Assembly: GCA_951406725.2 (NCBI GenBank) | Contig: OX597830.1 | Span: 41,106,001 to 41,170,000, forward strand | Direction: 5' to 3' | Origin: Octopus vulgaris | Lineage: Eukaryota | Length of the DNA stretch: 64,000 nucleotides | Shown: positions 2,796-44,199 of the stretch, in pieces | How the letters are laid out: every line of letters starts with the position of its first letter | How positions within the stretch are numbered: position 1 is the stretch's first letter | Made by a program: the position numbers and the translations under genes | The notes under the pieces: model-generated | What the model was told of the DNA's origin: nothing | What the model saw: the letters and a program-made list of their open reading frames with translations, nothing else | Database searches by the model: none

Positions 2796-3109
2796 AGTAA
2801 ACCTTTGTACGCACATTCTCAAATAGGTGTGGAAATTCTTTAAAGAAGTCATCCAATAGAGGCAACCACTATTCAAATACTTCCTCTCTCTCTCTCTCTC
2901 TCTCTCTCAAATACTAGCGTCTTTGCTGTCACAATCTTTACCTCCAGTATTTGATATATTCTTAGATCTTATCTATTATTTCCCTAAATCATCAGAGACA
3001 TCAACAACATGTAAATGTTGTCTCATATTGTTTAACTACTCCACTCTGTTTGTGTCATCTATAGTCTCAGTTCCTTATTATTTTCTGCTCTTGCAGTTTG
3101 CAAATGTAA

Positions 3110-8750: not shown

Positions 8751-9406
8751 CTATAGACCATCTCCCATCAAGCTCATCATCATAAGATACCATCCAATGT
8801 TTTAATAGCATTTGACATTCAACAAGTTGTATTCCTGATCAGCTTACAACCATACACTAACAATTTATTGTATTTTGTTTTCTTTGGTTTTATTTACTGA
8901 ATTATTCCTTACCATTTTTTCTTTTCATATTTTTTTGATCTCAGCTTTTTTTATTCCTCCTAAATATCACTATTCATCATATTTTCCATTATGTTTATCT
9001 CTTTTTCTTTCTTGCTTTTTTCTGTATTTTCTGGGAGTAAGGGATGGGGTTGAGGGGGGGGATACTTTGCAGTATTTCTTTTAATTCATAATACTCTGAG
9101 TTCAAATTCCACCAGGATCAGCTTTGTCTTTCATCCCTTTGGTGTCAATAAAATAAAGTACTTGCCAAGTGCTGGGTTTGATGGCATTGATTAACTTCAT
9201 CTTGTCATAATGGCTGGTTTTGTGCCAAAATTTGAAACCAGGTATGTGTTAGCAACAGGAGGGGCATCCAACAAATTCTTTCTGATTCTTGCAAGAATGG
9301 AAAAATGGACAACCCACCAGTTGTTTGTGACATCATTTACTGTTTAGCCTGTGTTACACTATATTGGTTTGACTGATTTTTGATCTGGCATTCAGTGTTT
9401 CGTTGT

Positions 9407-9454
9407 CTGATGCTGATGAGCTACAATTGACAGTGAAATCACCTGATACAACAG
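9407..9454 (+). ncRNA. Candidate type I hammerhead ribozyme, copy 1
   Basis: Helix I CTGATG/CAACAG (5 of 6 bp), core CTGATGA (9413-9419), stem II GCT/AGT, GAAA (9435-9438), stem III TCA-CC-TGA, cleavage triplet ATA ending at 9448. Confidence 0.55.
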
Positions 9455-9519
9455 TGCCATCTGCTGGTGCTGATGAAATTTTGTCAACTGATGTTTTCTG
9501 TGTCTTTAGCATTTGTCAT

Positions 9520-9567
9520 CTGATGCTGATGAGCTACAATTGACAGTGAAATCACCTGATACAACAG
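9520..9567 (+). ncRNA. Candidate type I hammerhead ribozyme, copy 2
   Basis: Identical to copy 1; predicted cleavage after 9561. Confidence 0.55.
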
Positions 9568-9737
9568 TGCCATCTGCTGGTGCTGATGAAATTTTGTCAA
9601 CTGATGTTTTCTGTGTCTTTAGCATTTGTCATCTACACACGAGTTTTTGGGATGTTTACCACAGACTACAACATTGTAAACAACACATCCAAATTTGGTT
9701 GGATGTGTTAATGTATTATTATTATTATCATTATTAT

Positions 9738-16420: not shown

Positions 16421-16499
16421 GTCTTAAAGAGGACAAAAAAATGCTAAGGCAAGAATCATTATCTCAAGTCATATATGTTACTATTATTAGAAAAATTTA

Positions 16500-16538
16500 G
16501 TCTTACAACTGTTTCTGGGATATTCCGTCATCAGAGAC
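16500..16538 (-). ncRNA. Minimal type I hammerhead ribozyme motif (PLE type)
   Basis: Minus strand GTCT-CTGATGA-CGGAATATCCCA-GAAAC-AGTT-GTA-AGAC; 4-bp helix I, weak stem II. Confidence 0.7.
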
Positions 16539-17078
16539 AAATAGGGAAAATGTGAAGGGTATAGGTTAAGGGAGAAAAAAGAAATAAAGAAATGAAGAAA
16601 AAAGAAGCATAAAAGTTTACAGCTCAAGTTTCCAATAGTGTAGATGCTAGTCCATCAGTCTTTTGGTACAGTCCTATGTAAATCTAGGAATGATTGAAAG
16701 CTTACATAGTGTAAATATTTGTGGAGCCCTGGTATTCTCTTATAGCACTTACCCAGCATACCTAGTCATTTAGATCACCTGTGGACTAAACTCTCATATT
16801 TTTCTCAGCAATTAATTGATTTCCACAGTACTGCAGATTTTCTTTTTTACCTGTCCTTGATGACTATTTTGGACCTGTTCTTTCATGTTATACATATTTA
16901 CTATCTCTATTCTGTCTTATTTGAACTCCTTACCTTTTCATATTCTGTCTTGTTTGGGGTATTGGCTCTTTCTACCTTCCTTCTTCAGTTCTTCCTTCAC
17001 TTTGTAAATGTAAAATGATGATAATGGTGATAGGGAAATATATTCTACTCTTTTTTTTTGTATGTGCCTAAGTAGTTC

Positions 17079-43460: not shown

Positions 43461-44199
43461 ATGCTCGCAACTTCTCTCAGGCTGTCATTGCATATATTAG
43501 CAACTTACTTTTTTTATTGTCATTATTTCTCTTCTTAATGACTCCCTTTTATTATCCCCCTTATTTATGTTAGCAACTCCATGTGTCATTCTTACATCTG
43601 TTAGCAACTTTATTGCTACACTTACTTGCCCTTTATGTTAGCAACTTGCATTCACTGTCAACCTTGTTTTACCACAATCCACTGGCTCTCACTCCTACTC
43701 CTGTTAGCAACTATTCTGTTATCATCTCTCTTATGTTCGCAACTTCATGTGTCATTCTTACATCTGTTAGCAACTTTATTGCTACACTTACTTGCCCTTT
43801 ATGTTAGCAACTTGCATTCACTGTCAACCTTGTTTTACCACAATCCACTGGCTCTCACTCCTACTCCTGTTAGCAACTATTCTGTTATCATCTCTCTTAT
43901 GTTAGCAACTTTTGTCTTACTGTCAATTTACCAGTTAGCAACTTCACTTACTGACATTTTTTCCTCTTGCTAGCCACACTATTGCTATCCTTGTATTACC
44001 AACATGTCACTTTCTCAGGTTCACAACTTATATTCCCTGTCACCCTTGTCTTACATACATTCCACTTGTCTCCTTCTTAATCCTGTGAGCAACTTTCTTT
44101 TATTATCCCTCTTATGTTAGCAACTTTCTTCTTACTGTCTCCAAACCAGTTAGCAACTTCACTTACTGACTGACATTTCTTCCCCTTTTGTTAGCAACT
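43461..44199 (+). repeat. Array of about 15 (T)GTTAGCAACT motifs with variable spacers, including a 166-bp higher-order duplication
   Basis: Motif near 43462, 43495, 43568, 43599, 43636, 43702, 43734, 43765, 43802, 43868, 43900, 43933, 44084, 44115, 44148 and 44189; 43568-43733 is nearly identical to 43734-43899. Confidence 0.92.

What the first reader, a model, noticed from the sequence alone, without database searches (positions are those of the whole stretch)
9406..9634. Perfect 113-bp tandem dimer with a hammerhead fold in each unit (mini-retrozyme candidate)
Seen: two identical 113-bp units, each with helix I (5/6 bp), CTGATGA, short stem II, GAAA, TCA-CC-TGA and an AUA site. Established: metazoan non-LTR retrozymes are tandem repeats with minimal type I hammerheads that often act as dimers through a palindromic stem III and release monomers that circularise. 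Inference: cleavage after 9448 and 9561 would release a 113-nt monomer, smaller than the retrozyme units I know. The quasi-palindromic TCACCTGA fits dimeric pairing. This motif differs from the GAAAC...GTH hammerheads elsewhere in the window. Caveats: stem II is only 3 bp including a G-U pair, and the duplication could be an assembly artefact.
Basis: partly seen in the sequence, partly recalled or inferred. Interest (0 to 1): 0.75.

Follow-up and report, generated by a model that had tools for sequence, protein, structure and literature searches.

The report
Recent duplication inside old retrozyme relic
The 113-base doublet is a recent local duplication, missing from other sequenced animals, inside an old worn copy of a roughly 340-base jumping repeat that carries a self-cutting RNA motif, so it is likely an ordinary by-product and not a new miniature element.

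Summary
The duplication and the hammerhead motif are real, but the 113-nt unit is not a retrozyme monomer. It is the middle third of a decayed copy (about 9305-9715) of a dispersed repeat: at least 75 loci, period about 330-345 nt, with partial tandems, head-to-head arms and microsatellite-rich 3' ends. Relatives carry a better hammerhead: covarying stem I, perfectly palindromic stem III, and a long stem whose 5' arm lies outside the duplicated piece. The window copy has lost pairs in stems I and III and is 16% diverged, whereas its two units are identical. The junction occurs once in 2.8 Gb. In sequencing runs it appears in 1 of 8 laid, at about half depth (likely heterozygous); the other seven give single-copy contigs, two related species included. 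Verdict: a polymorphic microhomology-type tandem duplication in a likely dead copy of an old non-LTR retrozyme-like family, probably spread by Penelope-like elements. This scan already reported younger retrozyme families (360 and 485 nt) in this genome. The locus is a useful false-positive case for 'tandem repeat plus hammerhead' screens; cleavage was not tested.

The parts
9305..9715 (+). Decayed, nearly monomer-length copy of a dispersed hammerhead-bearing repeat (family A; about 300 nt without the duplication)
   Evidence: Profile hits 9305-9521 and 9520-9715, E 8e-48 and 1e-46; BLAST to other loci over 9309-9725; 29 of 182 non-CpG sites differ from the family majority
9406..9518 (+). First copy of the 113-bp duplicated piece
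9519..9631 (+). Second, identical copy; junction 9518/9519 unique in the genome and seen in one run only
9632..9634 (+). 3-nt microhomology (TCT) at the duplication end
9407..9454 (+). Hammerhead 1: stem I 9407-9412/9449-9454, core 9413-9419, stem II 9420-9434, GAAA 9435-9438, stem III 9438-9447, predicted cut after 9448; core intact, stems I and III damaged
9520..9567 (+). Hammerhead 2 (identical; predicted cut after 9561); lacks its own copy of the upstream long-stem arm
9362..9403 (+). 5' arm of the family's predicted long stem that extends helix I; not duplicated
   Evidence: alignment A2 columns 23-70, pair counts
9456..9493 (+). 3' arm of the predicted long stem (duplicated at 9569-9606)
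   Evidence: alignment A2 columns 132-172
9716..9737 (+). TTA microsatellite abutting the 3' end of the element, as in many relatives

Best explanation
The doublet is a recent, polymorphic 113-bp tandem duplication in the middle of an old, likely inactive copy of a roughly 340-nt protein-less repeat with a type I hammerhead, most likely a non-LTR retrozyme once spread by Penelope-like elements. Steps: (1) inferred: master copies were transcribed as multimers, cut at AUA by double hammerheads paired through the palindromic stem III, and the 340-nt monomers, probably circles, were reverse-transcribed by a Penelope RT/GIY-YIG protein, giving permuted partial tandems and head-to-head arms next to microsatellites; (2) shown: one copy sits here, shared with two related species, and has decayed; (3) shown: 113 bp of it were duplicated with 3-nt microhomology, in one of the runs examined only; the repair or slippage mechanism is inferred; (4) predicted: the two motifs fold poorly and release little or no 113-nt RNA.
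For: Family: 41 matches to the unit, all but the two own copies 75-95% identical; homology runs 9309-9725; 75 distinct loci from two searches, Chapman estimate about 400, 0 in 400 kb of evenly picked DNA. Period: same-strand self-repeats of 293-352 nt in 12 of 12 loci chosen for showing two segments, profile period 346 columns. Anatomy: 28 of 66 arrays have an inverted partner at the 5' end; 20 of 66 have a microsatellite at the 3' end against 267 of 2080 control 70-mers (Fisher p 3e-4). Hammerhead real at family level: core-plus-stem-III pattern 45 hits against 0 reversed; in the 30 of these 45 that were fetched, stem I, not selected for, has 104 of 150 Watson-Crick pairs against 55, 39, 29 when slid and at most 97 in 5000 partner shuffles; covariation score 0.35 against 0.15. 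Decay: intact core in 15 of 45 copies not chosen by the pattern; stem III centre CG in 13, TG or CA in 27. Duplication young and local: 116 of 116 identical against 58-86% between natural neighbours; junction once in the genome with 2 mismatches allowed; single-copy contigs in X1, X3, X7 (join 9405 to 9519) and unbroken contigs across the expected break points in X6, X10, X11, X13; junction contig 9492-9548 only in X2, depth 38 against flanks 66 and 65 (Poisson p 2e-4 for homozygous, 0.19 for heterozygous). Folding: hammerhead fold costs 15.4 kcal/mol over the free ensemble against 3.9-12.0 in 8 relatives; double hammerhead 35.8; its pairs have probability 0.000 in a 430-nt transcript.
Against: The catalytic core of the window copy is intact and it has gained G10.1-U11.1 where 41 of 45 relatives have U-U, so some cleavage cannot be excluded. 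Nearest-neighbour folding also disfavours the relatives' hammerheads, so it is weak evidence. No locus with two intact hammerheads at monomer spacing was found (0; three printed tandems each have one damaged), RNAalifold gave no consensus structure on 34 copies, only 1 of 8 monomer-length copies folds better than shuffles at z below -2 on the sense strand, and two of the five measures for the long stem do not beat the shuffles. No Penelope element whose ends match the family was found, so the mobilising partner and the RNA circle are inferred. X2 may be the assembled sample; contigs drop rare variants.
Confidence: 0.85

Rival explanations
1. The 113-nt unit is itself a mobile mini-retrozyme monomer.
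For: Two complete motifs in tandem; bioinformatic retrozyme consensus lengths down to 51 bp are reported (10.64898/2026.07.22.740005).
Against: Junction unique in 2.8 Gb; no 113-nt period in other family loci (TRF on the central parts of loci L003-L049, L083-L110 and L158); family sequence flanks the dimer on both sides; single copy in 7 of 8 runs laid; the unit omits the 5' arm of the family's long stem.
Confidence: 0.02
2. The duplication accidentally re-created a working double hammerhead: carriers make a 113-nt cut RNA, perhaps a circle, although it has not spread.
For: Core and AUA site intact twice; 65-nt linker allows the dimer topology; dimeric hammerheads cleave where monomers do not (PMC4209133, PMC7229834). 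Contigs of a run guessed to be RNA cover the locus (X7; RNA status is a guess).
Against: Two central C-C mismatches in the dimer stem III (-3.7 against -12.9 kcal/mol), A-A in stem I, competing hairpins; 8 of 9 genomic dimers tested in Xenopus did not cleave; no promoter or host gene known (0 Pfam hits in 100 of 340 candidate frames).
Confidence: 0.06
3. The duplication is an assembly or library artefact.
For: 100% identity; absent from 7 of 8 runs laid.
Against: Run X2 has a 57-nt junction contig at depth 38 and flanking contigs that stop at 9435 and start at 9605, exactly where a 31-mer graph breaks around such a repeat.
Confidence: 0.05
4. The parent repeat is not a retrozyme but the solo pseudo-LTR of an extinct autonomous Penelope-like element (concerns the parent only; the duplication reading is unchanged).
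For: Partial tandems, inverted 5' arms and microsatellite bias are PLE hallmarks (10.1101/2021.04.23.441226); Xenopus retrozymes are homologous to pLTRs; one distant family member abuts a truncated PLE ORF in L167.
Against: PLE ORF remnants in 1 of 61 family-A loci (weak, 34 aa) and 1 of 16 family-B loci, against 2 of 40 random stretches; unit ends run directly into unit starts with no ORF between; 1 of 30 GIY-YIG loci holds family-like sequence, upstream and not at the 3' end.
Confidence: 0.2

Closest known systems
Metazoan non-LTR retrozymes (Cervera and de la Pena 2020, PMC7229834: abstract, passages, Discussion read; Li, Clavereau and Pollet 2026, 10.64898/2026.07.22.740005: parts 1-3 of 5 read)
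   Same: Parent family: type I hammerhead, about 340-nt AT-rich (GC 0.37-0.44) non-coding unit, tandem and monomeric copies, co-occurrence with active PLEs.
   Different: Old and decayed; at most about 1.8 units per array among the loci seen; expression, cleavage and circles not shown. The 113-bp dimer is an internal duplication, not a unit.
Hammerheads of Penelope-like pseudo-LTRs, minimal and canonical (Cervera and de la Pena 2014, PMC4209133: parts 1-2 of 4 read)
   Same: Palindromic helix III suited to dimers; families with covariation; dispersed single motifs; opposite-strand pairs 100-700 bp apart.
   Different: 6-bp helix I and 3-bp helix II closed by U10.1-U11.1 instead of 4-5 bp helix I, long helix II and G10.1-C11.1; no linked ORF found.
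Natural hammerheads with a U10.1-U11.1 mismatch (Perreault et al. 2011, PMC3088659: passages read)
   Same: The family's usual 10.1/11.1 state (41 of 45 copies).
   Different: Here in an animal repeat family; activity untested.

Membership tests
Type I hammerhead ribozyme | Core CUGANGA, GAAA and UH in three-way junction | tested here: met
   family-wide
Type I hammerhead ribozyme | Helices supported by covariation in homologues | tested here: met
   families A and B pooled; family A alone, weaker; relatedness of subfamilies inflates the shuffle test
Type I hammerhead ribozyme | Rfam gathering score | tested here: not met
   HH9 18.6-24.8 bits against 52
Type I hammerhead ribozyme | Self-cleavage | not testable with these tools
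   Folding predicts the window copy to be poor
Non-LTR retrozyme (113-nt unit) | The tandem unit is the mobile monomer, found at several loci | tested here: not met
Non-LTR retrozyme (113-nt unit) | Operational screen: two consecutive tandem units with a complete motif | tested here: met
   criterion (their rnabob model and energy filter were not run here)
Non-LTR retrozyme (340-nt parent) | Unit of 170-400 nt, low GC, head-to-tail or permuted copies | tested here: met
Non-LTR retrozyme (340-nt parent) | Non-coding, no RT | tested here: met
Non-LTR retrozyme (340-nt parent) | Two intact hammerheads in consecutive units | tested here: inconclusive
   0 by strict pattern; tandems with two hammerhead positions exist but one is damaged in each of three printed
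Non-LTR retrozyme (340-nt parent) | Expressed linear and circular monomer RNA | not testable with these tools
   No raw RNA reads offered
Penelope-like element pLTR | Flanks an RT plus GIY-YIG ORF | tested here: not met
   flanks of 1.5 kb only, and a sample of loci
Penelope-like element pLTR | Partial tandem plus inverted 5' arm, microsatellite bias | tested here: met

The most novel reading that the evidence does not exclude
A retrozyme caught at birth: a still-segregating local duplication of a fossil hammerhead re-creates a double ribozyme that excises a 113-nt RNA circle, the smallest functional animal retrozyme unit, present in carriers and absent in non-carriers.
Probability: 0.05. Interest if true: 0.65.

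Novelty: new member of a known kind. Interest (0 to 1): 0.2.

Why it matters
Mostly as a caution and a test case. Screens that call a retrozyme from 'tandem repeat plus hammerhead in each unit' would likely count this locus, although the unit is an accident; such loci may explain very short reported consensus lengths and non-cleaving dimers (inference). It also adds an older layer (families A and B, palindromic stem III, U10.1-U11.1) to this genome's retrozymes. If the dimer allele did cleave, it would be a natural carrier/non-carrier experiment on the proposed birth of retrozymes by local amplification.

Tried and rejected
Coding reading of the unit (open frames on both strands): no Pfam hit. 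Host gene: 0 Pfam hits in 100 of 340 candidate frames, so the transcribed strand is unknown. Rfam at gathering level: nothing. Strict search for two intact stem III motifs 330-360 nt apart: 0. RNAalifold on 34 family copies: no pairs; the long stem was drawn by hand from the alignment and counted, which favours it over slid controls. Folding z-scores of 8 monomer-length copies: only L094 clear. Link to the young 781-aa PLE (L111): no hammerhead by my descriptor and no family homology in its 456-bp repeats. L041 and L026 neighbours followed up: ORF remnants not flanked by family sequence. Expression: no RNA holder listed. X10 gives the same 197-nt contig and four differences as X11, so the two are not independent. 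The first stem III duplex value for L028 was off by one base and was corrected. Look-ups of earlier findings near this place and by sequence gave nothing. Literature searches listed no paper on this family; only listings and the named passages were seen, no supplements, and repeat databases were not available, so it may be catalogued there.

Full report
Observation. The window holds 116 identical bases at period 113, 9406-9521 and 9519-9634, that is two units and a 3-nt TCT overlap. The descriptor gave 0 hits in 40 simulated 64-kb windows and in 400 kb of reversed DNA. Rfam sees only weak HH9 matches, 18.6 and 20.8 bits against a cut-off of 52.

The unit is part of a longer repeat. A genome search with the unit gave 41 matches, the two own copies at 100% and the rest at 75-95%. 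Homology to these loci runs from about 9309 to 9725, about 100 bases beyond the dimer on each side; a profile places the element at 9305-9715. Two searches give 75 distinct loci with 3 shared, a rough estimate of about 400 that is biased low; 40 evenly picked 10-kb stretches held none. The end of the element runs into its own start: same-strand self-repeats of 293-352 nt in 12 of 12 loci chosen because they showed two segments, and a profile period of 346 columns. Of 66 arrays of 150 nt or more in 53 loci (10 duplicate loci and hits under 20 bits dropped; the two arms of one locus count separately), 28 have an inverted partner at the 5' end and 20 a microsatellite within 70 nt of the 3' end, against 6 at the 5' end and 267 of 2080 control stretches. 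The window copy ends at a TTA run. Partial tandems, inverted 5' arms and microsatellite bias are described for Penelope-like elements (10.1101/2021.04.23.441226, passages). The genome holds young PLEs, such as a 781-aa RT/GIY-YIG ORF between 456-bp repeats, but none tied to this family: ORF remnants lay in 1 of 61 family-A loci and 1 of 16 family-B loci, against 2 of 40 random stretches.

The hammerhead is real at family level. A pattern of core plus palindromic stem III has 45 exact hits against 0 for the reversed control. In the 30 fetched, stem I was not selected for, yet has 104 of 150 Watson-Crick pairs, against 55, 39 and 29 when slid and at most 97 in 5000 partner shuffles, with A-U/G-C and C-G/U-A swaps; covariation score 0.35 against 0.15. 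These rows pool two homologous families, A (the window's) and B, so part of the signal is a few subfamily changes counted many times. In family A, helix I appears to extend into a long interrupted stem (79% of 1240 cells paired against 24-47% when slid; 60 cells changed on both sides against 39.5 in shuffles; two of five measures not above shuffles), though RNAalifold found nothing unaided. Position 10.1/11.1 is U-U in 41 of 45 copies, a known natural variant (PMC3088659, passage). A short palindromic helix III is the known sign of hammerheads that work as dimers (PMC4209133).

The copies are old and the window's is worn. Among 45 copies not chosen by the pattern, 15 keep an intact core, and the CG centre of stem III survives in 13 and has decayed to TG or CA in 27. 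Core columns are somewhat better kept than background (0.91-0.92 against 0.83-0.84), as expected if masters were selected and copies then drifted (inference). The window copy differs from the family majority at 29 of 182 non-CpG sites; it keeps the core but has an A-A in stem I, a C-C centre in stem III and an altered stem II. The stem III self-duplex is predicted at -3.7 instead of -12.9 kcal/mol. Forcing the hammerhead fold costs 15.4 kcal/mol against 3.9-12.0 in 8 relatives, the double hammerhead 35.8, and its pairs have near-zero probability in a 430-nt transcript. These models ignore tertiary contacts and also disfavour the relatives, so this is modest evidence. The duplicated piece contains the 3' arm of the long stem but not the 5' arm at 9362-9403.

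The duplication is young, local and polymorphic. Natural neighbouring units are 58-86% identical; these two are 100%. The junction occurs once in 2.8 Gb with two mismatches allowed, and no other locus examined has a 113-nt period. Eight of the 24 listed runs were laid. X1, X3 and X7 have single contigs joining 9405 to 9519; X6, X10, X11 and X13 have contigs that pass unbroken through the places where a duplication would break a 31-mer graph. X2 alone has contigs ending at 9435, starting at 9605 and a 57-nt junction contig 9492-9548 at depth 38 against 66 and 65, which fits a heterozygote. X2 may be the assembled sample, and contigs drop rare variants. Organisms B and C carry the element at this place with 4 differences in 189 and 5 in 206 letters, so insertion and most decay precede those splits while the duplication follows them.

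Mechanism. Shown: an old, decayed copy; a late microhomology-bordered duplication; its restriction to one run. Inferred from anatomy and from PMC7229834: the parent RNA was cut from multimers by double hammerheads, probably circularised, and copied by a Penelope enzyme. Inferred: the duplication came from slippage or microhomology-mediated repair; a similar young 166-bp duplication without a ribozyme lies at 43565. Predicted: little or no 113-nt product. Cleavage and expression were not testable; no RNA holder was on record.

Comparison and verdict. The parent works like a non-LTR retrozyme and meets the sequence criteria that could be tested, except intact tandem hammerheads (inconclusive); a solo pLTR origin stays open. 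The 113-nt unit fails the monomer test yet meets the operational 'two units, two motifs' rule of 10.64898/2026.07.22.740005, in which 8 of 9 tested dimers did not cleave and local amplification is proposed as a route to new retrozymes. Earlier notes of this scan describe younger 360- and 485-nt retrozyme families with similar insertion anatomy in this genome; they are unchecked leads, and none matched this sequence. Three literature searches listed nothing on this family; supplements were not seen. New member of a known kind; interest 0.2.

Noticed in passing
window 16440-16700, minus strand (core at 16534): Second hammerhead-like motif of another, more abundant repeat family (47 matches, 1173 candidates); a relative has a perfectly palindromic stem III and some have inverted arms.
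   Followed up: partly
window 43565-43911: Another young tandem duplication, period 166, two mismatches, 7-nt microhomology, no hammerhead; shows that such duplications are not special to the ribozyme.
   Followed up: partly
L111:430-5672 (G000:C16): Young intact Penelope-like element: 456-bp direct repeats 99.3% identical, a 359-aa ORF without Pfam match before the 781-aa RT/GIY-YIG ORF, and no hammerhead found by my descriptor in its repeats; many full-length copies.
   Followed up: partly
L021, L022, L025, L027, L030, L032, L033 and others: Sister family B: same stem III and AUA site, different covarying stems I and II, homologous over the whole unit, period about 320-350 nt.
   Followed up: partly
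L062, minus strand near 3015: Canonical-looking type I hammerhead with AUA site just downstream of a PLE 3' end, on the opposite strand.
   Followed up: no
L167:5898-6199: Distant family-A-like copy directly abutting the truncated 5' end of a PLE ORF on the same strand; a single case, possibly a template switch or chance.
   Followed up: partly
L130 and L140: Two further type I hammerhead candidates in 400 kb of evenly picked DNA against 0 in the reversed control, suggesting thousands of such motifs genome-wide.
   Followed up: no
L014:1000-1842: Two family-A copies 469 nt apart, 85% identical: an older local duplication that also doubles a (damaged) hammerhead.
   Followed up: no
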